Source: a virus
Lineage: Duplodnaviria; Caudoviricetes
DNA length: 51,243 bases
Direction: 5' to 3' (one strand)
IMG/VR virus record: IMGVR_UViG_3300027917_000060
Location: 1 to 51,243 of that record
A program made the position numbers and the translations under genes. Below the pieces are notes generated by a model that did not search any database, was not told where the DNA came from, and was given only the letters and a program-made list of their open reading frames with translations. Below are positions 23,672-50,618 of this stretch, in pieces (positions within the stretch are counted from its first letter, which is position 1; each line of letters starts with the position of its first letter).

Positions 23672-24423
23672 TAGCGAATCCTAATAAACAGCTGGCCACG
23701 CAGTGGGTTTCTCTTGCCCGCAAACCTGCGATCCGCAAGCTTGAAGCGCTTGTTCGTGTCCGGGTGACGCTTGTCTACTGCCTTCAACTGCTGCAACGCG
23801 CGCATTTCCAGCCCTTGGAACGCCGCTACGTCTGGATGTCCTGGTCCGTAAAGGTGTATCGCCAGCCGCTTCTGCGCACCATATACCAATGCTGGTTCTA
23901 CTTCTGGCGGTATGTCAAGTGCAGCAGTCACTGAGCTTACAAGTGGAATGCGTCGATAATACTCCACGGTCAGCGTGTAGTCAGTAGCGGCGCCCGAGTC
24001 TGGTGTAGGGCCTAGGTACAACGTGCCGTCCCTCTCCACATTACGGAAAGAGTAAACGACAGGTATGCCCGACCCAATGTAACGGCTACTCCCGTACGCA
24101 TCCTGGTACTGCACGTACGGCAGGTACATCAACAGTAGTTCTTGCGTGGAGTCAGGGGTGTAGATCATACGAGCGATAGACTCGCGATACACGCCATTCC
24201 GCAGCACGATCGTGTTGGCGTCCGCAGTGATCGTCAGATTAGACTCGACCATCTTGTTGAACTCGTAGAGGTGCGAGTTCATTTCCTTGACGGTTTCATC
24301 AAGGAGGTCGAGTGCGACGCCCGCCATCTCGGTGTCGCTGGTCCTGTCAATGCCGTATACGTTGACTACCCTATCAACCAGGGCACTCTGATCAGACACC
24401 TTCTCCTGTTCCCACTGTGCCAT
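23671..24423 (-). CDS. Head-tail adaptor (tail tubular protein A-like)
   Basis: G.PVVYS, LYLGPTPD..YTLTVEYY and DIPPE..PALVYGA motifs of podovirus adaptors. Confidence 0.75.
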   Translation of the reverse strand: MAQWEQEKVSDQSALVDRVVNVYGIDRTSDTEMAGVALDLLDETVKEMNSHLYEFNKMVESNLTITADANTIVLRNGVYRESIARMIYTPDSTQELLLMYLPYVQYQDAYGSSRYIGSGIPVVYSFRNVERDGTLYLGPTPDSGAATDYTLTVEYYRRIPLVSSVTAALDIPPEVEPALVYGAQKRLAIHLYGPGHPDVAAFQGLEMRALQQLKAVDKRHPDTNKRFKLADRRFAGKRNPLRGQLFIRIR

Positions 24424-25516
24424 CCCGTCCTCCTGAGCGAACGATGTCGGCTAGGTCACGCACTGGTCCCTTCTTAACTACTCTCTCATATAAACTTACC
24501 CACTTGTCTACGTGCTTGTCAATGTGCCATTCGTCCACCACCCAATCGTAAAGCTCGCGTGCGGTCCGCTTACGCATTGGAGCGTCGGTAACTAACGCGT
24601 CGATCGCCTCCCGCCATTCATAGTTCCCCGCCACCTTGATCGCTGCGCTCGCCGGGACAGCAGCGTACGTGTCCCAATCGGTGCACAAGAACGCAGCGTT
24701 ACACATCGCTGCGTCGTACGCCTTGATGTGCGACTTCGAGCGGTTGAACTCGTTTTGTGCAACGGGAGCGAATATCACGTCAGGGGCAATCCAGCGCAGC
24801 GTCGCGCGGTACCGCGCCATCCCCATGGTTGGAATCGTAAATACCCGGTTGCGTATTGGATCGGTCGGCGACGGCAGCCACTTCAACGCCCAGTCTGGCA
24901 AGCAGCCAAGGAAGAACAGGCGCAAGTTCGGGTGGTCCTCCATGGCATGGACCAGCGCATCCTCAATCGTGTCCAAATCCCCTTTACGGCCTAGATTTCC
25001 AGCGAACATAAAGCGAACAGAATCGTCTTGGTGACGCTGCGGGTCCTTATCAAGCTGCCAATCCGGGGGGTAGACGCAGTTCGGTAATACCCACGACAGC
25101 TTGCAATCCTCGTCAAGTTGCTCCTGCAGGCGCGGTGTTGACACAGACACCGCGTCTGACATCCGCAGCATCATTCGCGTAATACGCCTGCCCTGCGAGC
25201 CGCCGTGATAGTCCCCAAAAGCGATGTTGTACGCTGGGACGTTCATGAAGTCATCGTCGATGTCCGTAATGAATGGGATCTCGGCATATTCACGCGCGGC
25301 TACAATGTACTTAAGAATCTCGTGGTTGATGACGTAGCCTGTGTGCAGGATGTCGTAATCCTTAACGTGCTTCATCAGCCACAAGTCAATGCGATCTTCG
25401 AAAGCGTTAGGATGCAGCTCTATGTCAACTCCTGCGCGCTTCAAGGCAGCGACTCCCAGCTCCGCGCGATAGTACCGCACGCCTCCAGCTTGTGGATGGA
25501 TTACACCGATACGCAT
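24392..25516 (-). CDS. Glycosyltransferase, GT-B fold (GT4-like)
   Basis: Start moved to 25516 (MRIGVIHP). Motifs YYR, TDIDDD, DAVSVSTPRL, VLPNC and APVAQNEFNRSKSHIKAYD. Confidence 0.85.
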   Translation of the reverse strand: MRIGVIHPQAGGVRYYRAELGVAALKRAGVDIELHPNAFEDRIDLWLMKHVKDYDILHTGYVINHEILKYIVAAREYAEIPFITDIDDDFMNVPAYNIAFGDYHGGSQGRRITRMMLRMSDAVSVSTPRLQEQLDEDCKLSWVLPNCVYPPDWQLDKDPQRHQDDSVRFMFAGNLGRKGDLDTIEDALVHAMEDHPNLRLFFLGCLPDWALKWLPSPTDPIRNRVFTIPTMGMARYRATLRWIAPDVIFAPVAQNEFNRSKSHIKAYDAAMCNAAFLCTDWDTYAAVPASAAIKVAGNYEWREAIDALVTDAPMRKRTARELYDWVVDEWHIDKHVDKWVSLYERVVKKGPVRDLADIVRSGGRDGTVGTGEGV

Positions 25517-26079
25517 GTCGCAACGTCCTGTGGATAGACGAACTTCGAACCTTGTGGAAAGAACAGGTCCATGTTTTGAATGTAGTTGTCCATGCACGGT
25601 GTCATGTGCCCGTGCACACCACGCACGCCGTGTGTTTCGGGCATGTTATAGACATACTCCGGTACGCCAGAGTGTCCTACGCGAAATGTCTGATGTGATG
25701 CAACGCAGTAGTTCATGCGCTTGCATCCCTCGTAAACGTCAAGATCCAGCAGCCAAGCAGGCGCACGAAACACTGGCGAATCAATCCCCATCTTCTTCGC
25801 GAGCTTAAGCTTTCGCACAGTCTCGTCGTCCGTCCAGTGCAGGCACTCACCACGTGTGTGCCGCCAACCATGCGGCGCTAGCTGAATCCACTTCCTGCCG
25901 AAGCGCTCATTCAGCGCAACGATCTTGTCCAATGCAACACACGTCGTCCGCTTCGGGATGGTGAACAGCGTAACCTTGAAGCCGCTATGCTTCTCTTTCA
26001 GCCTGACGAGTGGGTCCAACTCGTCGATCGTCGCGTCACAATAATCATCGAAATCTACGCAGAACTTCTTGGCGCTCAT
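25501..26079 (-). CDS. Polysaccharide deacetylase-like protein (NodB/CE4-like fold)
   Basis: VDFDD, VTLFTIP, APHGWRH, FRAPAW and HGH motifs. Confidence 0.75.
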   Translation of the reverse strand: MSAKKFCVDFDDYCDATIDELDPLVRLKEKHSGFKVTLFTIPKRTTCVALDKIVALNERFGRKWIQLAPHGWRHTRGECLHWTDDETVRKLKLAKKMGIDSPVFRAPAWLLDLDVYEGCKRMNYCVASHQTFRVGHSGVPEYVYNMPETHGVRGVHGHMTPCMDNYIQNMDLFFPQGSKFVYPQDVATCVSV

Positions 26080-26711
26080 TCAAACTCCCTGCCTATGTAT
26101 TTGAACAACACGTCGAACGTGTTTTTGTAGGGGATACAGGCGTACTCCATGCGCCAGTTCGGGTACGGCTTGAACAGCTCGATCCAGCCGATCGGGTTCG
26201 AGGTCCACCCGTAGTGCGAGGGGTTCTCGTCGAACTTCTCCTTGCTCTCGAGCGGTAGGGAGAGGTAGATGTACTTACGTGTCACACGTACCATCTCGTC
26301 AATGGCCTTCGGGATGTTGTAGCAGTGCTCCAGAGCTTGAGCGCTGAACGTGCACTGGTAAGCGTCATTGTCGAACGGAAGCTCGTGCATGTCGCAACAC
26401 ACCGCATCGCTAATCGTTTTGGCCTTCTCAATGAACTCCGGGATGATGTCCACCCCCATCACCTCCACAGTCGGCACGCGATTGATAAACTCGCGCATCT
26501 CGTAACCGACACGGCAGCCTAGAACGAGGATCTCGTTGGGACGTACACCCTGCGAGTGCATCCACTGGCAGAACAGCCCGGCGTTGATCTTCCCACGCTC
26601 GAACGGGTGCTCGATACTACCGTCGCTATGCCGTGTGTTCACGGACCGCTGCCGCTTGACGTAGCTCTCAGGCTCCTCGTCAAGGCGCCCACCTACGAAC
26701 TTAATAGCCAT
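26076..26711 (-). CDS. Class I SAM-dependent methyltransferase
   Basis: ILVLGCRVG, GVDI, DMHELPF and ALEH...EMVRV motifs. Start uncertain (26711 or 26735). Confidence 0.85.
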   Translation of the reverse strand: MAIKFVGGRLDEEPESYVKRQRSVNTRHSDGSIEHPFERGKINAGLFCQWMHSQGVRPNEILVLGCRVGYEMREFINRVPTVEVMGVDIIPEFIEKAKTISDAVCCDMHELPFDNDAYQCTFSAQALEHCYNIPKAIDEMVRVTRKYIYLSLPLESKEKFDENPSHYGWTSNPIGWIELFKPYPNWRMEYACIPYKNTFDVLFKYIGREFE

Positions 26712-27435
26712 GCTGTGCCCTAATGAAGTCGTCACATACCCTGCGAAATCGAGCCATGTTATCCACGGATGTCTCCTTACCGATCTTGTCCTCTGGGCGG
26801 TCCTTGCCGCCGATGTGGTACGCCTCGCCTGGGCCGATCATGTATGCCTCCATACCGAAGCGCAGCATGAATCGACAGCCTAGATCGTAGTCTACAAGAC
26901 CGTAGTCCTTGTACTCTAAGTCATGTCCTCCGACCGCGAAGTAGTCCTTCTTGCGCATGATCCAGTGCAAGTCGCGAAAGTCAGGGAACGCTTTGGGGTG
27001 CCCGCCCTTAAGCCGCCAGTCTTCGCGCTCGATCGGCAGGTCGGGGTACATGTCAACGGTGACATCGTGGGGCACGTCGTGCGTAGTGCCATAGACGATC
27101 AGCTCGGGCTCGGCGTACTCCAAGTTTGCTTCTATGGAACCAGGAGCGAGCACGACGTCGCCGTCGATATGCAAGACGTACTCAGTATCTGCGGCTTCCA
27201 TGCCTTGACGGATGGACTTGTGTGCGCCGAAGCCTTCGTGCTTGTGGTCCAGCAATCGCACAAGAAGAAGTGCGCGAGTCTCCTCGTTCGACTCTAGCAT
27301 GTTATCGTCAGTCCAAGGCTCGTCGTTCACGATGATCACACTGCGGATCGCATCAATGTTCGCGAGCAGCCCTGCCCGCACGAGCGGCCACGTTTTCTGC
27401 TTGCGGTAGTAATCTATGACGACGTCAACTTGCAT
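26701..27435 (-). CDS. Glycosyltransferase, GT-A fold (GT2/GT7C-like)
   Basis: VIIVND, LHIDGD (DxD), GGHDLEYKDYGLVDYD and YHI motifs. Confidence 0.85.
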   Translation of the reverse strand: MQVDVVIDYYRKQKTWPLVRAGLLANIDAIRSVIIVNDEPWTDDNMLESNEETRALLLVRLLDHKHEGFGAHKSIRQGMEAADTEYVLHIDGDVVLAPGSIEANLEYAEPELIVYGTTHDVPHDVTVDMYPDLPIEREDWRLKGGHPKAFPDFRDLHWIMRKKDYFAVGGHDLEYKDYGLVDYDLGCRFMLRFGMEAYMIGPGEAYHIGGKDRPEDKIGKETSVDNMARFRRVCDDFIRAQHGY

Positions 27436-28757
27436 TGTGCTATTTCCTTGCGGGCTTCGGCTTCAGTAACTCCGTACTCATAGATGTTCCTCATGTCGGC
27501 AAGTTCGCGTAGCTCAGTCAGCCACGCACGAACACGCGCAGCATCGCCCCACACCTTCGCCCATTCTCCAGGTTTGCCGATCGTGTGGAATCCTGCCGCG
27601 AAGTCCTCACTGTCCACGTCGATCTCTGGGAATCCGAACTTCGTTGGGTTGCGCCAGACTTGCGTACCTGGAAGAGGCACGAAGGCGTGGAAGCCCCATT
27701 TGTCTACAGGTGCCGTCTCGATGAACCGCTTCGTCTCTGCGATCGTCGCGACGTCCTCACCTGGGAACCCTACGATCATCTGGCCCCGGATGCCCATGCC
27801 TGCGTTCTTCACACAACGGATGGCACTCCAAGCCTCTTCCATCGTCTCGCACTTGTCCATGCGCTTGAGCATCTTGTCGCTGCCAGTCTCGAAGCCGAAA
27901 GTGACGTTCTGGCATCCCGCTGAGGCGAGCACATCAGCGAGCGCCTGATCCATCGTGTCGGCGCGGCACAGGCAATGCCACTTGAACTTGTGCTGCGGGA
28001 AGACGTTTTCGCACAGATGGTGCACACGCTTCTTGTTGATATTGAACGTATCGTCTTCGATGTAGATCAGGTCACACTCGTAGTCCTTGAGCAAGACGTC
28101 GAGTTCTGTGTGGAGATGCTCGTCGCTTAGGTAGCGTACAGCGCGGCCTGTAATGGCCGCCTGCGCGCAGAACGCACAATCGAACGGGCAACCGCGTCCC
28201 GTTTGTAGATAACCTTCATAGCGTACGCCGTCAGTCACGTACCTATTGATACCTACGTTGTGAAACGACCACATGTCTACGAGGTCACGTGCAGGACATA
28301 CGATCTTGCCCGCAGGCACACGCGGAAACTTCGATGCGTAGCCATGCAACCCATCGACCTTTTCACTCGGCCCGTTGTACATGAACTCGACGATGGCCTC
28401 GTCGCTCTCACCTACGAACGCATAATCCGCGTCCAGATGCTTCAAGCTCCACGCAGGCAACGCACTGACATGCGGCCCACCAACGATGATTTCGACTTTG
28501 CGGCGCGTACGTGCACGAATATGCTGAATCACGCGCTTCGCGATCGGTGCCTGCGCGCTCACGAGCGAGACGCCGTACACATCTGCGTCCGGGATGAGCC
28601 ACTTGTCCTCCGGCACTCCCACAAGATCGGCTACCTGAACTTCGATGCCTTCGAAGCGCAGAGAAGCCGCGAGGTACAGCACCCCCATCAACGGCAAATC
28701 ACGATCATTGATTAGCCAGGGGCTAGGCAGCTGTATCAGGACAATCTTTTCGCGCAC
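27414..28757 (-). CDS. B12-binding radical SAM enzyme (class B methyltransferase-like)
   Basis: N-terminal cobalamin domain (PLMGVLYLAA, IVGGPH, GESD), RGCPFDCAFC (CxxxCxxC), EDDTF, GFETG and VGFPGE. Confidence 0.93.
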   Translation of the reverse strand: MREKIVLIQLPSPWLINDRDLPLMGVLYLAASLRFEGIEVQVADLVGVPEDKWLIPDADVYGVSLVSAQAPIAKRVIQHIRARTRRKVEIIVGGPHVSALPAWSLKHLDADYAFVGESDEAIVEFMYNGPSEKVDGLHGYASKFPRVPAGKIVCPARDLVDMWSFHNVGINRYVTDGVRYEGYLQTGRGCPFDCAFCAQAAITGRAVRYLSDEHLHTELDVLLKDYECDLIYIEDDTFNINKKRVHHLCENVFPQHKFKWHCLCRADTMDQALADVLASAGCQNVTFGFETGSDKMLKRMDKCETMEEAWSAIRCVKNAGMGIRGQMIVGFPGEDVATIAETKRFIETAPVDKWGFHAFVPLPGTQVWRNPTKFGFPEIDVDSEDFAAGFHTIGKPGEWAKVWGDAARVRAWLTELRELADMRNIYEYGVTEAEARKEIAQCKLTSS

Positions 28758-29586
28758 GCTCTTTGTACCTCTCTAGCATATTTACGCTGTCTAGGTGTTT
28801 ACGCTGAGGGGTGTAAGCGTAATGCACAAATAAAGCTGAGCCGCAAAAGCACACTGGGCGCTCCAAACTCTCCGCCAGTGTCGTCGTCAACCACATCTCA
28901 TCATGCGCTACCTTGCCAGATGTCGCACGGCAGTTCTGGTACGGTATCTCGTCTCCGTAGTATGCATACACATGGTTCGGTGCGCGAAAGTAATCCTCGA
29001 CAACGATGCGCTCGAACAGGAACTCCTTGGTTGACCGGGCGTCAGCATGCGCCAAAAAGCTGTCATGCACTGCTTGTACCCAACCAACATCGTAATGTCC
29101 AACTGGGTCACTGGAATACCTGTTGCAAGGCCGCCAGTTTCGCACGTCTTTTGGCAATGCACCCAATCTCTGATGCTCCACGTTGCAATATGTGTTGTTC
29201 ACGATGTTGCCTACGACAGCCAAGTACTCACGATTCTGCCGTCTAAAGCTGGCTAGCTTCGAGATAGCGCCACGCGCCATCCACACGATGTCATCATCCA
29301 TCTTGATGTACATCTGCCCTGGCTCTTCACAGAATTGGTAGTACTCATCATACGGGTAGAACTCACCCTTCACCGCATCAGTCTCTCGGTTGGGCAACAC
29401 CTTCAACATGAACGTGTCCCTGTGCTCTGCAGCGAGGTCACGAATGTACTGCTTGTCGTCCTTGTCCTCCCATACGTTATCCCACAGCATGACGTACTTG
29501 TACGTCTTACGCTCTCGAAGTAAATAGGGGACCAAGACCTCCAGGTGGCGGCGCCTCCCACACGGAATGCACACAATCGGCTTCAT
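28723..29586 (-). CDS. Putative GT-A fold glycosyltransferase
   Basis: IPCGRRRHLEVL, YIKMDDDIVW (DxD), DE.WL and VHYAY motifs; cassette context. Confidence 0.65.
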   Translation of the reverse strand: MKPIVCIPCGRRRHLEVLVPYLLRERKTYKYVMLWDNVWEDKDDKQYIRDLAAEHRDTFMLKVLPNRETDAVKGEFYPYDEYYQFCEEPGQMYIKMDDDIVWMARGAISKLASFRRQNREYLAVVGNIVNNTYCNVEHQRLGALPKDVRNWRPCNRYSSDPVGHYDVGWVQAVHDSFLAHADARSTKEFLFERIVVEDYFRAPNHVYAYYGDEIPYQNCRATSGKVAHDEMWLTTTLAESLERPVCFCGSALFVHYAYTPQRKHLDSVNMLERYKERARKDCPDTAA

Positions 29587-30494
29587 TTACGTCCCTCACA
29601 CAAATCCACCCACCTAAACATGTTCTCACCGATCTTGGCGAAATAGTCGCTATCCACAGGGAAATCACGCAAACGTGCTGCGATCTTGCAGTATGACTGC
29701 ACTAACGACGACGCACGTACGTCCATGCTCCACACAAACTGCCACAACTCGCGGTGTATGCGATCGCCGGGCGCTTCCTTGTCCTTGTTTGCTTCGACAG
29801 ACGAGGCACGCTCGTGGTAGACCTGTGCGCCTCCATTGACGAAAGCCCAGTCGTGCTCGCTGAGCGCTTTCTGCGCAAACATCCCGCCCCATATGTCTGC
29901 GTAGCGGTCAAACGGTGTACCTTCGCCCTGTGCAGGTTGGTACATCACCTGCGTCACATCACGCTTGAAGCCAATGTTCATTGCAGATTGCGCGAATGGA
30001 GGGTGAATACGGCGCCATGCATTGCTCTTGTGATAGTACGGCACGATGGCGTGATGCATGTCGAACGCAGAATAATCAAGCACTCCGTTCCACAATCCGT
30101 GTGTGAGCGCGACAGGCATCAGCAAGCCTGAGCGCGGCATACCACGCGTGTATACCCCTTCGACCGTGAAGTTCCAATGAGGCACAGGCACTGACAGCCC
30201 GTCACTATGCTGCGCCGCCCACCACTTCGGGACGAAGCAATCGTCGTCCACAGTGAGAACGTAGTCATAACCATCAAGATACGCCTGCAAGAATCCAGCG
30301 CTACGAATCGAGTCGCAGCGTTGGCCGTACATTTCGGGCTCTGGCGCTACGATGTGGTGCACCTCCTGCCCATTCTCGTCTACATTGCGGCGCTCGCGAT
30401 CATGCACGACATACCACTTCACAGGCACAGTCTGCTCTGGGACTTTGAAGCCACGACACGTAGGCACTACAGCCGCAATCCTAGGGCGCTGCAT
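29583..30494 (-). CDS. RGP/GT75-like protein (reversibly glycosylated polypeptide / NDP-sugar mutase family)
   Basis: Start moved to 30494 (GGAG RBS). Motifs IRSAGF, TVDDDC, YTRGMP, HGLWNGVLDY, MNIGFKRD and RYADIWGG. Confidence 0.75.
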   Translation of the reverse strand: MQRPRIAAVVPTCRGFKVPEQTVPVKWYVVHDRERRNVDENGQEVHHIVAPEPEMYGQRCDSIRSAGFLQAYLDGYDYVLTVDDDCFVPKWWAAQHSDGLSVPVPHWNFTVEGVYTRGMPRSGLLMPVALTHGLWNGVLDYSAFDMHHAIVPYYHKSNAWRRIHPPFAQSAMNIGFKRDVTQVMYQPAQGEGTPFDRYADIWGGMFAQKALSEHDWAFVNGGAQVYHERASSVEANKDKEAPGDRIHRELWQFVWSMDVRASSLVQSYCKIAARLRDFPVDSDYFAKIGENMFRWVDLCEGRK

Positions 30495-31209
30495 CGGCTC
30501 TCCAAGGTGGAATGTACGGGATTGACTGGAATAATCCGTGCTGCTCGAAGTGTGAAGGGTCGCGTTCTTCCTGCGCGCGGGTGTTATGCCGCACACGGAT
30601 GTGCTTCAAATACGCCATCGGAATAATCGGATCGTGATTGCGGCAATACGAAGCCATGCTCGTTGCATCGCCTGAGCCCAACGGCATGCGCACGTCGGAG
30701 ACATAGTCCTTGATTAGCTCCATAGGATGCAGCCTGCAAATGCCGCCGATCGCGTACGTCAGGAACTCAAGCTGCAGCTTCTTGACCATACACACCTGGG
30801 AGCGTGCCGGTGGGTTCTTTAGACCTCGAATCGTAGGCGAGAGGATCATTTTGTCGTCGAGGAGTGCGCTTGCTTCGACTAGCTTCTTGAGCCAACGCTT
30901 CGACGGGAACTCGCAGTCGTCGTCTAGACGTAGAAGGTACTTGGCGCCTTTGTCACGCGCTAGCCAATGCGCCTCGTTCCATGCGACATGCTGCCCTACG
31001 TTCGTAGAGTAGCAGTACGACGTGTCAATGAGGCCAGTACTCTCAGCGGTCTTGATAACATTCTCGCCAACCTCGGCGCACCCCGACCCGACGACGTGCC
31101 AGTGGAACTTACACCCTGCCGTACGACGAGCCTGTGTGATTGTCTCGTTGAGCATGCGAGCGCGTTCGGGCGTCGATGCACGCGTTACCGTAAATGCGCA
31201 GATCATCAC
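30481..31209 (-). CDS. Glycosyltransferase, GT-A fold (GT2-like)
   Basis: NVGQHVAWN, LLRLDDD, IGGIC and VRH motifs. Confidence 0.75.
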   Translation of the reverse strand: MMICAFTVTRASTPERARMLNETITQARRTAGCKFHWHVVGSGCAEVGENVIKTAESTGLIDTSYCYSTNVGQHVAWNEAHWLARDKGAKYLLRLDDDCEFPSKRWLKKLVEASALLDDKMILSPTIRGLKNPPARSQVCMVKKLQLEFLTYAIGGICRLHPMELIKDYVSDVRMPLGSGDATSMASYCRNHDPIIPMAYLKHIRVRHNTRAQEERDPSHFEQHGLFQSIPYIPPWRADAAP

Positions 31210-32006
31210 TAACCCGAAATAAACGCCGCGCTAATCCCGCCTGGACGCTGACGTCGCGGTGTCTCCGTCAACGGCCTTGTGAGTTGCAAGTTCTCACCAT
31301 GCCAGTGGTACTTCTGCACAACTGCATTCACGCCCTTTCCACGCCATCCACTGAAGAACACACCGCGTGTGAACAACTCCCAATCGCCGAAGCGCCGGTA
31401 CTCTTCATTCCACATCTTGCCTGTCGCTAACTGCAGTCTCCACAGGGCACCCTTTGCGACTAGCGCATCCGACGTGTCGATGAAATTCGTCGAAGGATTA
31501 TGCAGACGCTGCACGTTCTCTGCAAACGGCACGAACGGCGATACGCCATTATGTAGATTCATTCTCGTGCACCCCTCGTCGATCACATACTCGCGGCGCC
31601 CGTAAACAAAATCCGGCCAGACCTTGCCCTCCTCGATCGCCTCGACAAGCACCGTCAAGTGGTTTGACGTCCATTCGTTGTCGTCGTCTAGATACGCGAT
31701 GTAATCTCCTCGCGCGTGCCATATAGCTACATTTTTTGGAACGCATTGGTACCCACTGTTCTCATCCAACGCCAAGAACCGAAAGTCAACCTCGGTCAGC
31801 TCGAACACATCTGCTGACTCTTTGCACACCTCGATCGTCTCTTCGTCAGCAGGGCCGTCATGGATGACGATTACCTCGAAGTCGTCAAAGTCCTGGTTTT
31901 CTACAGAATCTAACGCGCGCTTGAGTAGCTTGGGGCGCTTGTACGTATTGACGATCGCCGTGACGCAAGGAAACTCACGAAAGGGGCGGGATTCTCGCAT
32001 GCTCAA
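31209..32006 (-). CDS. Glycosyltransferase family 2
   Basis: TYKRP.LL.RAL.SV..Q, VIHDG, ARGDYIAYLDDD and GDWE motifs. Confidence 0.92.
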   Translation of the reverse strand: MSMRESRPFREFPCVTAIVNTYKRPKLLKRALDSVENQDFDDFEVIVIHDGPADEETIEVCKESADVFELTEVDFRFLALDENSGYQCVPKNVAIWHARGDYIAYLDDDNEWTSNHLTVLVEAIEEGKVWPDFVYGRREYVIDEGCTRMNLHNGVSPFVPFAENVQRLHNPSTNFIDTSDALVAKGALWRLQLATGKMWNEEYRRFGDWELFTRGVFFSGWRGKGVNAVVQKYHWHGENLQLTRPLTETPRRQRPGGISAAFISG

Positions 32007-32373
32007 TCAAATCCTTCACTTCGGCTGTCTCGCGTAGAACACGTTGATCGAGCAACGATTTCGCAGTCTCGCGCACGCCCCGCATGGGGTAGACTTCCCA
32101 TTTGTACTCCTCTTCGTTCCAGACGGATGGGTTGTTCGCATATGGAACATAGCCTTCTAAGTACCCACAGTTGCAGACGAACGAATCACGGTACCAGTCG
32201 TCTTGCTCATGCCCTGTTTGCACGTGTCCTTCGCGCTTCGGCAGTGTGAAATCGCAGATCGAGATCGTGTCCTTGAATCCGTCCTTTGAGCGGTAGTAAC
32301 GCAAGCGTGCCCAAGTACGTTTGTTCCGCTCGATAAACCTACGAAAATCGTCCCAGTACATGCCGTGCATCAT
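31975..32373 (-). CDS. Hypothetical protein, first CDS of the glycan cassette
   Basis: AAGGAG RBS that overlaps the 3' CCA of the tRNA-like RNA. Confidence 0.7.
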   Translation of the reverse strand: MMHGMYWDDFRRFIERNKRTWARLRYYRSKDGFKDTISICDFTLPKREGHVQTGHEQDDWYRDSFVCNCGYLEGYVPYANNPSVWNEEEYKWEVYPMRGVRETAKSLLDQRVLRETAEVKDLIEHARIPPLS

Positions 32374-32381
32374 GGGCTCCT

Positions 32382-32475
32382 TGGCGGAGGGCGGAGGACT
32401 CGAACCCCTCGCCCGATCTTTCTAGTCGCCACCGTCAAGCGTCGAGCCGGGCGTTTATCCTTTGCTACACCCTCC
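32382..32475 (-). ncRNA. tRNA-like RNA (94 nt) with Ser-type acceptor end and no canonical anticodon arm
   Basis: Acceptor GGAGGGTG/CGCCCTCC followed by G-CCA; T-loop GGGG-TTCGAGT-CCTC; TAGC...GG D-loop-like segment; central helix CGCCCGG/TCGGGCG enclosing 30 nt. Confidence 0.75.
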
Positions 32476-32483
32476 ATGCGCTG

Positions 32484-32492
32484 AGTATAACA
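32484..32492 (-). promoter_or_regulatory. Extended -10 promoter (TGtTATACT) for the tRNA-like RNA and glycan cassette
   Basis: TATACT ends 8 nt before the 5' G of the RNA. A TTGACG lies 19 nt upstream in the terminator loop. Confidence 0.55.
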
Positions 32493-32525
32493 AAAAACGG
32501 GGGAGCCCCGTCAAGGACTCCCCCG
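32492..32525 (-). terminator. Rho-independent terminator after the capsid genes
   Basis: CGGGGGAGTCCT-TGAC-GGGGCTCCCCCG hairpin followed by TTTTTT. Confidence 0.88.
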
Positions 32526-32556
32526 CTGCTATCCCAGGACGAATCCCAGGCTGGCA

Positions 32557-32763
32557 TTACTTGCCTGAAGTAGGCTTCGATGTGGACTTCGACCCAGACG
32601 AGCCGAAACCACCCGCACCCTTGGCGTTCTTCGCATTGGGCGCGCCATAGTGGTTCCCCTGTCCTGCGCCACCCGTCGTGGGATCGCAGGTCTGACCAGA
32701 GTCCTTGGAGTACTTCATGAGGCCCGCAGGCTCGAACTTTCCGCCAGTTTTGTAGCTAGCCAT
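32557..32763 (-). CDS. Small Gly/Ser/Lys-rich protein after the major capsid (68 aa)
   Basis: Strong AAGGAGG RBS before MASYKTGG; lies between the capsid stop and the terminator. Confidence 0.7.
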   Translation of the reverse strand: MASYKTGGKFEPAGLMKYSKDSGQTCDPTTGGAGQGNHYGAPNAKNAKGAGGFGSSGSKSTSKPTSGK

Positions 32764-32774
32764 GTTGGCCCTCC

Positions 32775-33698
32775 TTACAGCGACAGGGGGTAGTTGAGGC
32801 GTACCAGTCGATATTCCGTGGCCGACCATGCGGCAGGCACGACACCGAAGTACACCTTCGCACCGACTGTCGCGACTTGGTTCACGGGGTCACTGGTACC
32901 GCCGCTCCCCAGTTGTTTGACGAACGTGCGCGCCGTCATGTCGCTGATCTCGGTGACGTAATACGCATCGGGCGCGAACATGTAGTTACGCGCGCCGCTG
33001 ACAGCCGCCGAAATCGGTGCGGTCTCCTTGATGTTCGAGGAGGTGACGAAGCGTGCACCGTAAAGACGCCCGATTTCACCGATGTAGATGCGATCCGCAT
33101 TTCCCTCGGTGTACTTCGTGACGTCGAGCCACGCACCACCACTCAAGTTGATCTGCAAGTCGTATGCAGCCTTTGGGTGGATGATGCAAGGATAGTGGTT
33201 GTCGGGCGGGCGTGGGTTGTCCGCAGAATCGAGCGTCACTACAGCCTGAATGATGTCCGCAGGCTTGAGATAGTCGGTTCCGGTACCCTCGGACTGAATG
33301 GCTCCTGTCGCGGACAGCGCATCACGCACCGTGGTGTCCATCTTCTTTGCGATGTCCCGCGCGATGTCGACAAGCGACAGCTCGACGACGTCCGAAAGCG
33401 CAGTCATCACCAGCACGTCGGAGTGCTTGTACGCGCCCGCATATTGAGCCATCGTGCCCGAGATGTACTGGTCGCTGATTGGGCACGTCCCGATCACCGT
33501 TCCCTCGGTGTTTGCGAACACGATGTTCTTCTTCAACAGCCTCGGGATCTTGATGGTCGTACCGAAGTTACGCGGCACGGTCCTCTTGGTCCCGAACTGA
33601 TAGAAGTACAAGTTCGGGTACAGGTTCTCACCGAGCACCGCATCCCAGTAAGGCGGGATGAAATGGGTGAGGGTGCTGCTGGTTGTAGGTCCAGCCAT
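32775..33698 (-). CDS. Major capsid protein, N4-gp56-like family
   Basis: QFG...VPRNFGTTIK, IIHP...YDL, GEIGRLYGARFV and DPVNQ..TVG.K motifs; follows the scaffold. Confidence 0.9.
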   Translation of the reverse strand: MAGPTTSSTLTHFIPPYWDAVLGENLYPNLYFYQFGTKRTVPRNFGTTIKIPRLLKKNIVFANTEGTVIGTCPISDQYISGTMAQYAGAYKHSDVLVMTALSDVVELSLVDIARDIAKKMDTTVRDALSATGAIQSEGTGTDYLKPADIIQAVVTLDSADNPRPPDNHYPCIIHPKAAYDLQINLSGGAWLDVTKYTEGNADRIYIGEIGRLYGARFVTSSNIKETAPISAAVSGARNYMFAPDAYYVTEISDMTARTFVKQLGSGGTSDPVNQVATVGAKVYFGVVPAAWSATEYRLVRLNYPLSL

Positions 33699-34821: not shown

Positions 34822-35217
34822 CTACCGACTGGCTGTGAAACCAGTGTATCTGCTTTCACCAGTTACATTTAACACATCCTCTCCGTGGATGCCAGTTGTT
34901 CGTTGTGCGCGGTCCTCCTGTTTCAGCTTCTTGTCGTGTAGGTCCTCGTATTGCCGGTTGAGGATCGCTGGAAATGCGAGCAATCGTTCGATGACGTGTA
35001 GTGCTGCTCGTTTCTCGTTGTCTCGTGAGTTGCCGAACTTGTCAACGGCGCCATTGAGTAGCTCGGCAACGAGGTCTTTGCGTACACGTTGCATGCGTGC
35101 CATGTAATCTGTCCACGCTGGTTGCGAGCCGAGCGCGGCGTACAGTGCGTGCAAGCGTGCAACGTCGTCATAGTTAGAGACCTGTATCGGCGATGGGAGC
35201 CCCGCTTCGGTCAACAA
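34822..35217 (-). CDS. Small helical protein between portal and scaffold
   Basis: C-terminal part of ORF 34822..35373. The probable start is a TTG overlapping the portal end (uncertain). This position is commonly occupied in podoviruses. Confidence 0.55.
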   Translation of the reverse strand: MLTEAGLPSPIQVSNYDDVARLHALYAALGSQPAWTDYMARMQRVRKDLVAELLNGAVDKFGNSRDNEKRAALHVIERLLAFPAILNRQYEDLHDKKLKQEDRAQRTTGIHGEDVLNVTGESRYTGFTASR

Positions 35218-37231
35218 TTCCGCCAGTTGCGCTCGCTCGGTCTCCCGGATTCTGCACGTTTTGCATCGGGTTGTTTTGACCGTTTCCACCAGCGCCGCCA
35301 GGGAATTGCGCGGGACCTTGCATAGGCCCTTGAGGCCCCTGCCCACTTTCTGCGCCCATGCCTTGATTTTCATTCGGTGCTCCCCCTGCCATGCCCTGCG
35401 CAGCTTGCATTGCCATCATCTGCTGCAGCATGACTTCTTCCTCGGTTCGTACGTACTTGTCCGGGTCCTTCCAGCCACGATCTTGCATGAGCTTGCGTAG
35501 GATCTGCTCGGGGCGCAAGTACGGGGCAAACGACGGGTTCGCAGCGAGTTGAACAAGCTCTTGGTCCATTTGGAGGCGAGTCTCCTTGGACAACGCGAAC
35601 ATCCCACCGCTTACGATAATGTCGATCGGTATCTGGATTTCCGCCAGGTCGACCTGCGCGTACTCCTCGCCCACGGTGCGGACGATGCGGGGTGAGGACA
35701 TGCGCATTTGCAGCCACTTCCAGGTGCGTTCGAGCAGCTCCTTCTTGACGGTGTAGTCGTTCCACATGGTGTAGAGCATGTGGCGCGCGTTGCCTTGCTG
35801 AATTTTACGCTCGACTTCGGTAGCTGTCTGTCTATCTTGGGCGCCGACGCCTTGCATGATGTCGCTGGCTGCGGCGGCGTGCTCGGCCTGGGTCTGACGA
35901 TACTGGTCCTCATTCCACGCATCGGGCAGCACCGGCCTGCGCTCAAGTACGCTGAACACGTCCCTGACCGTTTCGCCTTGTTCGGGGCGCACCTCGATCA
36001 CGCCTGCGGGTTGAATGAGGAACTGGTTGTCACTGACTACTGCGTCAGCTTTGTACAGATACTGCTGCCAGATGCCAAGGAATACCTCGTCGAGGCGCAT
36101 GTTTGCGAGCCGTGACTGCTGGTCCGCGAGCGGGCCGATGTAGCGCAGAATCGACTCGCCGTACAAGCGCTTAGGGATGGGTACCGACTTTATGGGAAAG
36201 TAAGGAGGTCTGCCATCAGGAGTCGGCGAGGGTTCGTCGCGAAGTACGTATTTACCCTCAGCTATCACGGTAAGACGCCAGGCGGAGTCGTCTTTCTCGC
36301 GTAGCTCTTGCGGTACCCATCCCCAGCATTGCCATAGTTTGATGCCGATGCCGTCACGCATCGGAGTGGTGAGGTGAAGGGGGATACCCTCAGTCGCTTC
36401 GGGCTCTCGTGCATATTCTACGGATACGCCCGCCGACGTGCCCGAGCGTGCATCACTAAGACTATCCCCTCCTTTCATCATCGCGTTGGGAGGAGGTATC
36501 GAGGCCATGAGTGCGGCGAACTCAGTCTTGTCGTATACGCCAAGATGATCTTGAACGTCTTGCAGCTTTTCGACCGTGGTGTCGATCTCTTCGATGAACC
36601 ACTCGTACTCGCCCGTTGGGTCGGGGAACACACGGTCGAGCGTGAGCCAATCGAAGTCGACGTTGTTGTACGCCTCTTCCGTCACGACCTTGGCTTCGAC
36701 GCCCATGACCTCCATGCCTGTTTCTTCGTCAATAATTGGCGTCGGCACGAGTACCTGGCGCTCGGTGTACTCTTCCTTCCAGACGATCTTGCCCCACGCA
36801 TGCCCCATGATCAGGGCGTACTTGAGCGCTTCGTACATCTTAGGGAAGAGTTCCATCTCTTCGACTGTGGCGCGCAGGAGTGACTCGCACATGAGTTCGT
36901 ACTCGGAGTCACGGCGTTGGCGAGCTTCGACGCTGAACCAGTCCGGCGTGTCGAACATGCCGATGACGTAGCGTGGAAGCAGCGTTTCGATGACCTTGTA
37001 GACCGTGGGGATGACTTCGTTGGCGCGCCACCAGTCGGCAGGGTCCTCCATGGGCTCGGCCCAATTCCGGTACCACTTCCAGTACTTGATCCAGTCGCCT
37101 TCGTAGAGCTGCTTGAGTTCTTGCGAACGCTGGCGACGCGCGGTCCATAGGTTGATGCGTACGTCGAAGGGGCCGTTGAGCTGGTTAGGCCCCTCGAAAT
37201 ACGCACCGCTCGATCCTGCCATGAAAGGCAT
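35174..37231 (-). CDS. Portal protein (P22-like)
   Basis: 685 aa between TerL and scaffold; ALIMGHAWGK, VFPDP, LYGES and G...RQTATE motifs; Gln/Gly-rich tail. Confidence 0.88.
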   Translation of the reverse strand: MPFMAGSSGAYFEGPNQLNGPFDVRINLWTARRQRSQELKQLYEGDWIKYWKWYRNWAEPMEDPADWWRANEVIPTVYKVIETLLPRYVIGMFDTPDWFSVEARQRRDSEYELMCESLLRATVEEMELFPKMYEALKYALIMGHAWGKIVWKEEYTERQVLVPTPIIDEETGMEVMGVEAKVVTEEAYNNVDFDWLTLDRVFPDPTGEYEWFIEEIDTTVEKLQDVQDHLGVYDKTEFAALMASIPPPNAMMKGGDSLSDARSGTSAGVSVEYAREPEATEGIPLHLTTPMRDGIGIKLWQCWGWVPQELREKDDSAWRLTVIAEGKYVLRDEPSPTPDGRPPYFPIKSVPIPKRLYGESILRYIGPLADQQSRLANMRLDEVFLGIWQQYLYKADAVVSDNQFLIQPAGVIEVRPEQGETVRDVFSVLERRPVLPDAWNEDQYRQTQAEHAAAASDIMQGVGAQDRQTATEVERKIQQGNARHMLYTMWNDYTVKKELLERTWKWLQMRMSSPRIVRTVGEEYAQVDLAEIQIPIDIIVSGGMFALSKETRLQMDQELVQLAANPSFAPYLRPEQILRKLMQDRGWKDPDKYVRTEEEVMLQQMMAMQAAQGMAGGAPNENQGMGAESGQGPQGPMQGPAQFPGGAGGNGQNNPMQNVQNPGDRASATGGIVDRSGAPIADTGL

Positions 37232-39059: not shown

Positions 39060-40847
39060 CTAATTCTCCTTCCTAGGCAGTTTGCCCCAATCTATACGCT
39101 CGCTCCTACCCTTATCATAGTGATCGAAGTGCGGAATAGCCAAGCTGCCGTCTTCTTGGAGCCCGTAACGACCTGTCGGGTCGTCATTCGTCGATTTTGC
39201 TGGTGTGGCAAGCGCGGCACGGTTAAAAGTAGGCGTCGAGAGCTGGCGTGGGCGTAGATTTCGCACTTTCCACGCTTTTGCGTCACGAGTATGGGGGCGG
39301 ACGCGAATATCGGGGTGGAACGCCAGGCTCAGTGCGTCGATCGTGTCGTCGTGCGACCACTGGCCCATGTGAACCGCTTCGTCGACTATGACCTTGTGGA
39401 TGTTTTGCGGGAACCCCTGGACGAAGTGGATTTGACGTGCCATCGCGGGGTGTTGAAGGGCTTCGACGATGCGGACGAACTTCCGCCCCTGACCGCGCAC
39501 GTTGAGTGGGAAGATGGTGAGCGGGAGGTTTGCGCGGTTGAACTCACTACGCACCCATCCGAAAAAGGTATCCTCGCCGACTTTTTCCTTACAGAAGTTC
39601 GTGACGCTGTAGCCATGATCCGCCTTGCACTTCTGGTGCATGCTGATAATACGTTCAATGAACTCGCGGCCTTTGAGTTTGTCGCTGCGTAGAGCATCGG
39701 TGAGGTACAGGTGTCCGTAACTGTCGAAATGCCCGACGAACGCGACGGTGTAGTCGCCTCGCATCAAGATCTGCTCGTCCTTGGTCGCAGAGTCTACGAA
39801 GAACGCGCTGAACACGACGCCGCCAGGCAGGCGCGGTATCCACGTATCAAACCACTCTTCCTCGAACTTCTTCCCCGCTGGTGACATGCAGACGTTCATG
39901 TACTGCTTCCACCAGTCTTCCTCGCCACGCTTGGCGTCCATGGAGTACTGCGCGAGTTCTTGCAGCAACGTCTCACGGCTCCACACGGTGGGGAGGATCG
40001 GCTCGCCTTCGACACGGGGGTTCGTGACGGGGGCGCCGTGTTCGTCTTCGAGGCAGTGGCGAACCTTGGACTCGAACGCTGTGCTTACTTGCAGCGAGGT
40101 GTCTACTTCGTCGCCTCGGTCCTCGCCAAGCATTGCGCCGTAGATGTCGTTGTAGGCCCAACGCGTCCCGACAACGAACATCATGTTGTAAGCGCCGGTT
40201 TTGTCGACGATAGGAATTAAGTCGTTGAAGTCCTTGAGCGATTTGTCGGCTTGCTCGGGAGTGTTGACGTGACGTTTCTCGATGGGGTCATCGGCGATGA
40301 GTATGTCGCAACGTCGGCCCGCAACAGGCGCGCCAAGGTAAAAACTACGAAACGTCGGATCGATGAGGTTGTGGGCGTCACGTAGAGGGTGGGTAAAGTC
40401 ATAAGTGCGCCCAAACTGCTGGTCACGTTTGACGCGGTACTCGGGGAATACGCTGAGGAAATGCTCGTTGTACTGGAATTGACGCTTGACCATCTGGCAG
40501 AAGTGCTGCGCGGTGTCGTCGAGGGCTGAGACGAGGATGATGCGTACATTGGGGTCCCTTACGATGCGCCAGACTGCGTGTGCGATCGTGACAAGATACG
40601 TTTTGCGATGCCCGCGCGGCATGAGCAGCAGTTTGCGCGCGCCTTTCTTGTCCGTGCCGACCCACTCGCAGACGGGCAGGTGCAGCTTGTCGTAGTAGTG
40701 CGTAGGCGCCGTGTCGGGCCAAAGCACTTCCGTGGCGAAGAACCACAGATCCTTGAGGCCGAGTTCGCGCGTCTGGATGCGGAGTTCCTCATCCATGAAC
40801 GCGAGGACTTCGAGGTCCTCAGCTGTGGCTAGCTTGTCTTTTGCCAT
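39060..40847 (-). CDS. terL: Terminase large subunit
   Basis: Walker A MPRGHRKT, Walker B ILIADDP, GTRW coupling motif, QYMN, and nuclease residues VDSA, GDYT, HDDTIDA. Confidence 0.95.
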   Translation of the reverse strand: MAKDKLATAEDLEVLAFMDEELRIQTRELGLKDLWFFATEVLWPDTAPTHYYDKLHLPVCEWVGTDKKGARKLLLMPRGHRKTYLVTIAHAVWRIVRDPNVRIILVSALDDTAQHFCQMVKRQFQYNEHFLSVFPEYRVKRDQQFGRTYDFTHPLRDAHNLIDPTFRSFYLGAPVAGRRCDILIADDPIEKRHVNTPEQADKSLKDFNDLIPIVDKTGAYNMMFVVGTRWAYNDIYGAMLGEDRGDEVDTSLQVSTAFESKVRHCLEDEHGAPVTNPRVEGEPILPTVWSRETLLQELAQYSMDAKRGEEDWWKQYMNVCMSPAGKKFEEEWFDTWIPRLPGGVVFSAFFVDSATKDEQILMRGDYTVAFVGHFDSYGHLYLTDALRSDKLKGREFIERIISMHQKCKADHGYSVTNFCKEKVGEDTFFGWVRSEFNRANLPLTIFPLNVRGQGRKFVRIVEALQHPAMARQIHFVQGFPQNIHKVIVDEAVHMGQWSHDDTIDALSLAFHPDIRVRPHTRDAKAWKVRNLRPRQLSTPTFNRAALATPAKSTNDDPTGRYGLQEDGSLAIPHFDHYDKGRSERIDWGKLPRKEN

Positions 40848-50086: not shown

Positions 50087-50160
50087 GGAGCGTTAGTGTA
50101 ATGGCTAACACGCCGGGCCGTAACCCCGCAAATCCAGGTTCGAGTCCTGGGCGCTCCACC
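50087..50160 (+). tRNA. Atypical tRNA, nominal anticodon GTA (Tyr), with C33 and a short variable loop
   Basis: GGAGCGT/GCGCTCC acceptor, A73, GTGT/ACAC D-stem, loop CCGTAAC, CCAGG-TTCGAGT-CCTGG T-arm. Confidence 0.8.
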
Positions 50161-50543: not shown

Positions 50544-50618
50544 GATGATATAGCTCAATTGGTAGAGCACCAGACCATAAATCTGGCGTTCCGGGTTCGA
50601 TTCCCGGTATCCTCGCCA
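50544..50618 (+). tRNA. Atypical tRNA, nominal anticodon ATA (Tyr), with C33 and G73
   Basis: GATGATA/TATCCTC acceptor (one mismatch), GCTC/GAGC D-stem, CCAGA-CCATAAA-TCTGG anticodon arm, G-CCA end. Confidence 0.8.

What the first reader, a model, noticed from the sequence alone, without database searches (positions are those of the whole stretch)
32382..32475. Anticodon-less tRNA-like RNA heading the glycan cassette
Seen: a 94-nt RNA with an 8-bp acceptor (GGAGGGUG/CGCCCUCC), G discriminator, encoded CCA and a 4-bp T-stem with a UUCGAGU loop (8/4 geometry). There is almost no D-stem. A 7-bp helix enclosing 30 nt replaces the anticodon and variable arms. That insert contains three serine-anticodon-like heptamers (CU-CGA-CG, CU-UGA-CG, CU-AGA-AA), which may be chance. 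The CCA overlaps the RBS of the next gene, and the RNA is isolated from the tRNA cluster and on the opposite strand. Known: 8/4 allo-tRNAs and non-ribosomal aminoacyl-donor tRNAs exist, and GGAG.../G73 is Ser-like. Inference: it could be an aminoacyl donor or decoy, an RNase P/Z processing signal controlling the cassette, or a tRNA with a roughly 23-nt intron.
Basis: partly seen in the sequence, partly recalled or inferred. Interest (0 to 1): 0.82.

Follow-up and report, generated by a model that had tools for sequence, protein, structure and literature searches.

The report
Crippled phage serine-tRNA heading an operon
This 94-base stretch is a damaged copy of an unusual but already described kind of phage serine tRNA that keeps its amino-acid-accepting half but has lost its anticodon, and it most likely serves only as a structured leader or cutting signal for the sugar-transferase operon behind it.

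Summary
Window 32382-32475 (-) has an 8-bp acceptor stem, G73, encoded CCA, a 4-bp T-stem with a UUCGAGU loop, almost no D-stem, and a 7-bp helix around a 30-nt loop. Its CCA abuts the Shine-Dalgarno of the next gene.

It is not a new RNA class. Both arms match, base for base, the (8/4) tRNA-Ser/allo-tRNA family described by Mukai et al. (PMC5389517). I recovered 16 such tRNAs with the same arms, 8 from IMG/VR and 8 from genome contigs. With the arms fixed, 14 of 15 family members (14 unique loci plus L009) fold into three central hairpins. The element folds into one, with no usable anticodon arm.

ARAGORN and Rfam silence means little here: ARAGORN of 16 real members and Rfam of 14.

The element is a singleton and is absent from the five closest relatives. 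It occupies a slot where related phages carry real tRNAs. In two of them a tRNA-Ala ends 1 nt before the start codon of the same gene.

Best reading: a non-decoding tRNA-Ser relic with its own promoter-like site, acting as 5' leader or processing signal. The intron and glycan aminoacyl-donor readings found no support.

The parts
32382..32475 (-). 94-nt tRNA-derived element (RNA position i = 32476-i)
   Evidence: Sequence read. Family model R1 scores it 52.7 bits. ARAGORN and Rfam at gathering thresholds do not call it.
32468..32475 (-). Acceptor 5' strand, GGAGGGUG
   Evidence: Pairs with 32386-32393. Identical to 16 (8/4) tRNAs found by pattern.
32454..32467 (-). Unpaired D-like region UAGCAAAGGAUAAA, with the D-loop GG
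   Evidence: Unpaired in the arm-constrained fold. GG is invariant in family D-loops.
32410..32453 (-). Single long irregular hairpin: 7-bp GC-rich helix plus inner 4-5 bp. It replaces the anticodon and variable arms.
   Evidence: Constrained folds. The R1 alignment places an anticodon-like stem GACGC/GCGAC with an A.A mismatch and a 9-nt loop.
32417..32446 (-). 30-nt loop holding CUCGACG, CUUGACG and CUAGAAA
   Evidence: shuffle P 7e-5, post hoc.
32394..32408 (-). T arm: GGGG-UUCGAGU-CCUC
32382..32393 (-). Acceptor 3' strand CGCCCUCC, discriminator G (32385), encoded CCA (32382-32384)
32496..32527 (-). Intrinsic terminator of the capsid operon (14-pair stem, T-run)
32484..32514 (-). Promoter-like site: TTGACG (in the terminator loop), 19 nt, TG-n-TATACT. 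The predicted start is about 2 nt before G1.
   Evidence: one of three such sites in the window. The standard scan misses it because of the 19-nt spacer. The transcription start is inferred.
32368..32382 (-). Shine-Dalgarno AAGGAG (shares the A of CCA), then CCC and ATGATG
31975..32373 (-). First gene of the cassette, 132 aa, unknown fold. It is conserved in relatives with and without an upstream tRNA.
   Evidence: AF2 pLDDT 87.6. No clear PDB match.
24392..32006 (-). Glycan cassette: GT2, GT2-like, RGP-like, GT, B12-radical SAM, GT2, methyltransferase, DUF2334/deacetylase-like, GT
32370..32477 (-). Alternative reading: 35-codon ORF laid over the element. ATG at the predicted transcript start, TGA overlapping the next ATG.
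   Evidence: No homologue was sought. Considered unlikely.
32557..33698 (-). Upstream capsid module: major capsid protein (32775-33698) and a small Gly/Ser/Lys-rich protein

Best explanation
The element is a crippled copy of a phage (8/4) tRNA-Ser gene. It keeps the amino-acid-acceptor branch: the 8-bp acceptor stem, 4-bp T-stem, T-loop, G73, CCA and the D-loop GG. The D-stem, anticodon arm and variable arm have collapsed into one long irregular hairpin, so it cannot decode.

It lies in a slot downstream of the capsid operon that related phages fill with real tRNA genes. It follows a strong terminator and a promoter-like TGnTATACT site, so it forms the first about 95 nt of the glycosyltransferase-operon transcript.

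Inferred mechanism: the intact top half, with U-1, G+1 and GCCA, is still handled like a pre-tRNA. RNase P would cut at G1 and the 3'-end machinery would act at or after CCA. This would release a stable tRNA-like fragment and leave an mRNA that begins at the Shine-Dalgarno. If it is not cut, it would act as a protective 5' structure. That is a bacterial-phage analogue of plant mitochondrial t-elements.

Shown: sequence kinship of the arms, absence of a cloverleaf centre, the genomic position, and tRNAs abutting the same gene in relatives.
Inferred: transcription start, cleavage, and any benefit.
For: - Arms identical to 16 class-II tRNAs found by pattern (8 IMG/VR, 8 genome contigs). Most sit in tRNA arrays.
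- RNAalifold on 15 family members gives an 8/4 branch and a covarying 5-bp anticodon stem.
- Mukai et al. describe (8/4) tRNA-Ser in phages and an allo-tRNA pseudogene with disrupted pairs (PMC5389517, passages read).
- With the arms constrained, 14 of 15 family members give three central hairpins and the element gives one.
- Family model R1: element 52.7 bits, L009 tRNA-Ser 72.7 bits.
- The same slot holds real tRNAs in L008, L009 and L015.
- In L008 and L015 a tRNA-Ala ends ...CCA, then 1 nt, then the ATG of the 132-aa homologue, with no Shine-Dalgarno. Translation there appears to need tRNA 3' processing.
- A terminator and a promoter-like site stand directly upstream. CCA shares its A with AAGGAG.
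- RNase P, CCA-adding and T-loop enzymes accept acceptor/T minihelices (recalled biochemistry, not checked here).
Against: - The element is a singleton. No second copy of its centre turned up in IMG/VR. One scan gave a single 19-mer hit that is not tRNA-like. Another gave 43 hits, none flanked by tRNA-like arms, which I judged to be coding sequence by eye.
- It is absent from the five closest relatives, L003-L007. These form a well-supported clade with the window and still carry the cassette. The element is therefore dispensable for cassette expression.
- Fold energies are not better than shuffles.
- The minimum-energy fold of the leader with the start of the ORF does not keep the acceptor stem.
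- Intact arms could also reflect a recent gain followed by a few indels or duplications in the centre, rather than selection.
- There are no RNA data.
- Cleavage right after CCA would leave a 5'-terminal Shine-Dalgarno, and exonucleolytic trimming could damage it.
- R1 was built from sequences chosen for these arms, so its score is partly circular.
Confidence: 0.5

Rival explanations
1. Inert pseudo-tRNA. A tRNA-Ser gene landed in, or was left in, this labile tRNA slot and was wrecked by a few indels or duplications in its anticodon region. The arms are intact only because the damage is recent. The cassette is expressed from the adjoining promoter regardless of the RNA's shape.
For: - It is a singleton and is absent from the five nearest relatives, which keep the cassette.
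- tRNA occupancy of the slot changes at least twice on the capsid tree, and four times on the best tree.
- The tandem CUCGACG/CUUGACG looks like slippage.
- There is no thermodynamic signal.
- An allo-tRNA pseudogene with disrupted pairs is on record (PMC5389517).
Against: - Every helix of the anticodon branch is lost. In contrast, 12 of 12 pairs of the acceptor branch, the T-loop, GCCA, the D-loop GG and the two outer D-stem pairs are kept.
- The best 5-bp/7-nt hairpins have only 4 pairs and lack U33.
- Real tRNAs abut the same start codon in L008 and L015, which suggests the position matters.
Confidence: 0.3
2. A trans-acting, non-decoding tRNA mimic. The released 94-nt RNA would be recognised, and perhaps serylated, through its G73, its G1-C/G2-C/A3-U acceptor pairs and its long arm. 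It would then act as a decoy for host tRNA-targeting defences, or as an aminoacyl donor.
For: - Serine-type acceptor features and G73 are retained.
- SerRS relies on the long extra arm and the discriminator rather than the anticodon, and 8/4 tRNAs are charged in E. coli (PMC5389517).
- A non-translating pseudo-tRNA with a cellular role exists in Bacillus cereus (PMC3399842, abstract seen in the listing).
Against: - No tRNA-dependent transferase family was recognised in the cassette.
- The adjoining 132-aa protein has no recognisable fold.
- No discrete variable arm is present.
- The cassette works without the element in relatives.
- No second example was found.
Confidence: 0.1
3. A real tRNA interrupted by an intron of about 23 nt in the anticodon loop, with CCCGG/UCGGG as the anticodon stem.
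For: At 80% of its normal threshold, ARAGORN draws a 71-nt tRNA with a 23-nt intron.
Against: - ARAGORN finds nothing at default thresholds.
- The sub-threshold model has a 1-bp D-stem, an intron after U33 rather than at 37/38, and anticodon AAA. A second relaxed run gives a different tRNA, Arg(acg).
- I saw no bulge-helix-bulge motif on inspecting the sequence.
- The signals around it (TTGACG/TATACT, Shine-Dalgarno, intrinsic terminator) are bacterial.
- Bacterial tRNA introns are group I and far longer (recalled).
Confidence: 0.02
4. A 35-codon leaderless ORF (32370-32477, minus strand) encodes a basic peptide that is translationally coupled (ATGA overlap) to the 132-aa gene. On this reading the tRNA likeness is ancestry only.
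For: The ATG lies 7 nt after the -10 box, the frame is open for 35 codons, and the stop overlaps the next ATG.
Against: - An open frame of 35 codons is easy to get by chance in 57% G+C DNA.
- Relatives have no such ORF.
- The sequence is explained by tRNA ancestry.
Confidence: 0.03

Closest known systems
(8/4) tRNA-Ser / allo-tRNAs of bacteria and phages (Mukai et al., Nucleic Acids Res 2017, PMC5389517)
   Same: - 12-bp acceptor branch split 8/4, G73, encoded CCA.
- Arm sequences identical to 16 members I recovered.
- Members occur in phages and in sediment or soil metagenomes.
   Different: - No anticodon arm, no discrete variable arm, and a D-stem of at most 2 bp.
- It stands alone at the head of an mRNA rather than in a tRNA array.
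Allo-tRNA(UAU) pseudogene and non-translating allo-tRNAs (same paper, passages read)
   Same: 8/4-type tRNA sequences with disrupted pairs, or with no activity in translation.
   Different: In the passages I read, those keep a recognisable cloverleaf with an anticodon. This one has lost the whole anticodon branch and keeps the acceptor branch perfectly.
Plant mitochondrial t-elements (Forner et al. 2007, PMC1920247, abstract read)
   Same: tRNA-like structures next to mRNA ends, proposed as cis-signals for RNase P or RNase Z cleavage. This is the mechanism I favour here.
   Different: Different system (organelle versus phage) with no sequence relation. Cleavage has not been shown here.
tRNA-mRNA co-transcripts in related phages (L008, L015)
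   Same: A tRNA sits immediately upstream of the same 132-aa gene, downstream of the capsid module.
   Different: Those are intact tRNA-Ala(UGC) genes ending 1 nt before an ATG with no Shine-Dalgarno. The window has a damaged Ser-type tRNA followed by a good Shine-Dalgarno.
Bacillus cereus tRNA-Other (PMC3399842, abstract from the search listing only)
   Same: A pseudo-tRNA that does not work in translation yet has a cellular effect.
   Different: Chromosomal, with a different tRNA type and no sequence relation tested. It is not an mRNA leader.

Membership tests
(8/4) tRNA-Ser / allo-tRNA (Mukai 2017) | 12-bp acceptor branch split into an 8-bp acceptor stem and a 4-bp T-stem | tested here: met
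   The eight acceptor pairs and four T-stem pairs are all standard or G.U.
(8/4) tRNA-Ser / allo-tRNA (Mukai 2017) | G73 (or U73) discriminator | tested here: met
   G at 32385, followed by CCA.
(8/4) tRNA-Ser / allo-tRNA (Mukai 2017) | Anticodon arm (5-bp stem, 7-nt loop with U33) carrying an anticodon | tested here: not met
   The best 5-bp/7-nt hairpins have 4 pairs and no U33. The centre folds as one hairpin, against three in 14 of 15 members. ARAGORN finds none at default thresholds.
(8/4) tRNA-Ser / allo-tRNA (Mukai 2017) | Long variable arm as a separate hairpin | tested here: not met
   There is no separate hairpin in the constrained folds. The only candidate, CGACU-AGAAA-GAUCG, has a C.A mismatch and competes with the 7-bp helix (my own inspection).
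(8/4) tRNA-Ser / allo-tRNA (Mukai 2017) | D-arm with a stem of 3 or more pairs and GG in the loop | tested here: not met
   GG is present, but only 2 pairs are possible.
Rfam tRNA (RF00005) and tRNA-Sec (RF01852) | Score at or above the gathering threshold (29 and 47 bits) | tested here: not met
   No RF00005 match even at E 10. RF01852 scores 14.4 bits. Only 1 of 14 genuine family members passes Rfam either, so this test has little weight.
tmRNA | tRNA-Ala-like ends with G3.U70 and a tag reading frame | tested here: not met
   ARAGORN's tmRNA search finds nothing, even when relaxed. The third acceptor pair is A-U.
Intron-containing tRNA | A cloverleaf is restored once an intron in the anticodon loop is removed | tested here: not met
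   ARAGORN -i finds nothing at default thresholds. Calls below threshold disagree with each other.
t-element-like processing signal (functional class) | A tRNA-like acceptor/T domain lying directly at an mRNA end | tested here: met
   Promoter-like site, then the element, then the Shine-Dalgarno. The transcript ends themselves are inferred.
t-element-like processing signal (functional class) | Cleavage by RNase P and/or a 3'-end nuclease in vivo or in vitro | not testable with these tools
   No RNA run holds the sequence. Only DNA contigs could be laid on it.

The most novel reading that the evidence does not exclude
The acceptor branch is kept by selection because the released 94-nt RNA is a free-standing, SerRS-chargeable tRNA mimic that never enters the ribosome. 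It would be a phage-made decoy or sponge for host defences that attack tRNA acceptor ends, or an aminoacyl donor for a non-ribosomal reaction. The three serine-anticodon-like heptamers in its loop would then be functional bait rather than slippage debris.
Probability: 0.08. Interest if true: 0.8.

Novelty: new variant of a known kind. Interest (0 to 1): 0.4.

Why it matters
If the top half is used as a cutting or stabilising signal, this would be a phage example of a tRNA gene recycled into an mRNA-end element. Together with the tRNA-Ala genes that end 1 nt before a start codon in two relatives, it would point to tRNA punctuation shaping late-operon mRNAs in this uncultured marine-sediment podovirus group.

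There is also a practical point. Standard detectors miss most genuine (8/4) tRNAs, so "no tRNAscan, ARAGORN or Rfam hit" should not be read as "not a tRNA" in phage genomes.

If the element is only a pseudogene, it is an ordinary by-product of the fast turnover of phage tRNA genes.

Tried and rejected
- **Close DNA relatives in the phage collection:** none by megablast. blastn found only generic T-arm matches.
- **Single-protein locus searches in IMG/VR:** nothing for the capsid or the 132-aa protein. tblastn of the 132-aa protein against phages found nothing.
- **IMG/VR scans for the odd centre:** a 19-mer from the D-like region gave one hit that is not tRNA-like, about what chance allows. 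The doubled heptamer gave 43 hits. None had tRNA-like arms around it, and by eye they look like coding sequence.
- **Sequence similarity of the centre to 15 family centres:** not above shuffles (best z 2.4). Family centres themselves average only 57% identity, so this says little.
- **Sequencing runs:** three DNA holders, all marine-sediment metagenomes, and no RNA holder listed. The laid contigs are identical over the element. The third run's contig starts only at 32526, so there is no polymorphism or end information.
- **attP or integration-scar reading:** no repeat of the element elsewhere in the record except a 24-nt T-arm likeness to the tRNA at 50137-50160. No integrase turned up among the ORFs I scanned (not every ORF was scanned). 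The cassette is present in relatives without the element.
- **The 132-aa protein:** no Pfam or PHROG family, no Atlas lead. The model is confident but Foldseek gives no match below E 0.5 and the best VIA Z is 5.6.
- **Searching relatives' whole records or "relatives" of a virus record:** not possible.
- **Supplementary figures of Mukai et al.** (phage tRNA clusters, Fig. S2) could not be seen. They may show similar degenerate copies.

Full report
**Where the element lies**

The window is a complete 51,243-bp IMG/VR virus record. Its late genes are on the minus strand:
- large terminase, 39060-40847
- SU10-type portal, 35174-37231
- N4-gp56/PHROG-1357 major capsid protein, 32775-33698
- a small Gly/Ser/Lys-rich protein
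- a 14-pair terminator, 32527-32496
- the element, 32475-32382
- a 132-aa ORF
- nine further carbohydrate-modifying genes: GT2 types, an RGP-like protein, a B12-radical SAM enzyme, a methyltransferase, a DUF2334/deacetylase-like protein and other glycosyltransferases
- the SU10-type adaptor

The only runs that hold the sequence are marine-sediment metagenomes.

**Checking the observation**

The details are in the observation check.

The element is preceded by TTGACG (inside the terminator loop), 19 nt, then TG-T-TATACT. This is one of only three such sites in the record. The default promoter scan misses it because of the spacer length. The predicted start is the A that lies 2 nt before G1, and the base at -1 is U. 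After CCA come AGGAG, CCC and ATGATG.

**What it is related to**

A pattern made from the two acceptor strands and the T-arm found 8 IMG/VR loci and 8 genome-contig loci. All are 83-93-nt class-II tRNAs. Their anticodons are serine (UGA, CGA, GGA, GCU) or, in one Planctomycetota MAG, GAC. Most lie in tRNA arrays.

A relative of this phage, L009 (capsid 58% identical), has a tRNA-Ser(UGA) in its array with the same geometry. Its acceptor stem carries two compensatory changes relative to the element.

RNAalifold on 15 members returns an 8/4 acceptor branch and a covarying 5-bp anticodon stem. This is the (8/4) tRNA-Ser/allo-tRNA group of Mukai et al. They report it in phages, show that such tRNAs are processed and charged in E. 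coli, and mention a pseudogene and non-translating members (PMC5389517; abstract and passages read; supplements not seen).

**Why detector silence is not evidence**

ARAGORN of the 8 viral members and 6 of the 8 genomic members. Rfam at gathering thresholds of 14. The silence of both on the element therefore carries little weight.

**What is actually missing**

I fixed the acceptor and T stems and folded the rest. Under that constraint 14 of 15 family members form three hairpins: D, anticodon and variable. The element forms a single long irregular hairpin and leaves 14 nt of D-like sequence unpaired.

Its best 5-bp/7-nt hairpins have four pairs and lack U33. The family model aligns a displaced GACGC/GCGAC stem with an A.A mismatch and a 9-nt loop.

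ARAGORN with introns finds nothing at default thresholds. Relaxed runs give two incompatible tRNAs.

The following are kept:
- all 12 pairs of the acceptor branch
- the T-loop
- GCCA
- the D-loop GG
- the two outer D-stem pairs

The RNA therefore cannot decode, but it retains the half of a tRNA that processing enzymes recognise (the enzyme specificity is recalled, not tested here).

**Comparative context**

A capsid alignment (A1) brought in 42 metagenome loci and 80 IMG/VR loci.
- On a capsid tree the window groups (95/92 support) with L003-L006, and L007 is sister.
- None of these five has anything tRNA-like between the hairpin that ends the capsid module and the 132-aa homologue. All five still have that gene.
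- More distant relatives fill the slot with real tRNAs. L008 has tRNA-Met and then others. L009 has an array of at least 18. L015 has several.
- Occupancy of the slot needs at least two changes on well-supported branches.
- In L008 and L015 a tRNA-Ala(UGC) ends ...ACCA. One nucleotide later the ATG of the 132-aa homologue begins, with no Shine-Dalgarno. Translation there seems to require that tRNA 3' processing creates a leaderless mRNA.

The window's arrangement, a tRNA-like element abutting the translation start of the same gene, is the same design built from a different and damaged tRNA.

**Mechanism and weights**

- *Preferred reading, 0.5.* A tRNA-Ser relic that now forms the 5' leader of the cassette transcript, whose top half still acts as a processing or stabilising signal.
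- *Inert pseudogene, 0.3.* This is the main rival. It is favoured by the element being a singleton, by its dispensability in relatives, by the slippage-like doubled heptamer (three CUNGA words, shuffle P 7e-5, post hoc), and by fold energies no better than shuffles.
- *Trans-acting chargeable mimic, 0.1.* Not excluded. It has no support from the cassette's gene content, and the 132-aa protein gives no lead.
- *Intron, 0.02, and small ORF, 0.03.* Both are unlikely.

**Verdict**

The element is real and tRNA-derived. It is a degenerate member of a known family in a known kind of position. Interest is moderate. It rests on the possible reuse of a tRNA top half as an mRNA-end signal and on the tRNA-start-codon junctions in relatives.

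Noticed in passing
L008:2228-2305 and L015:2800-2877: An intact tRNA-Ala(UGC) ends in CCA, and one nucleotide later comes the ATG of the 132-aa-protein homologue, with no Shine-Dalgarno. This implies a leaderless mRNA made by tRNA 3' processing in these relatives.
   Followed up: partly
L125-L140 (16 pattern hits): Genuine (8/4) tRNA-Ser-type genes are mostly missed by standard tools. ARAGORN of 16. Rfam at gathering thresholds of 14, and that one as tRNA-Sec.
   Followed up: yes
L126:340-627 (-): A bacterial class A RNase P RNA match (166.9 bits, about 288 nt) sits inside the tRNA array of a 73.6-kb IMG/VR contig that also carries an (8/4) tRNA-Ser. It may be a phage-encoded RNase P RNA.
   Followed up: no
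L133:1102-1162 (+): A Pistol ribozyme match just above the gathering score (36.8 against 34.5 bits), on a contig binned as a Nitrosotalea MAG that carries a large tRNA array.
   Followed up: no
window 50087-50160 and 50544-50618 (+): Two of the phage's four called tRNAs have C rather than U at position 33 in the Rfam alignment. ARAGORN reads their anticodons as GUA and AUA (both Tyr). The second loop, CCAUAAA, could also be a shifted CAU.
   Followed up: no
window 32557-32829 (-): A small Gly/Ser/Lys-rich protein directly after the capsid gene is conserved in relatives. Its start is probably at 32763 (MASYKTGGK...). Its Ser/Thr-rich tail makes it a candidate target of the glycan cassette.
   Followed up: no
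window 31975-32373 (-): The first cassette gene (132 aa) has homologues in 19 of the fetched loci. Its model is confident (pLDDT 87.6), but it has no Pfam or PHROG family and no clear PDB fold match.
   Followed up: partly
L135, L136, L139 (one Planctomycetota MAG): Three 8/4 tRNAs share the element's arms. ARAGORN reads a valine-type GAC anticodon in two of them (L135, L139) and does not call L136. They are allo-tRNA-like candidates for missense decoding.
   Followed up: no
window 32496-32527 / 32484-32514 (-): The terminator and the promoter-like site overlap, with the -35 hexamer in the terminator loop. Similar terminator-promoter overlaps are seen in L008 and L015.
   Followed up: partly
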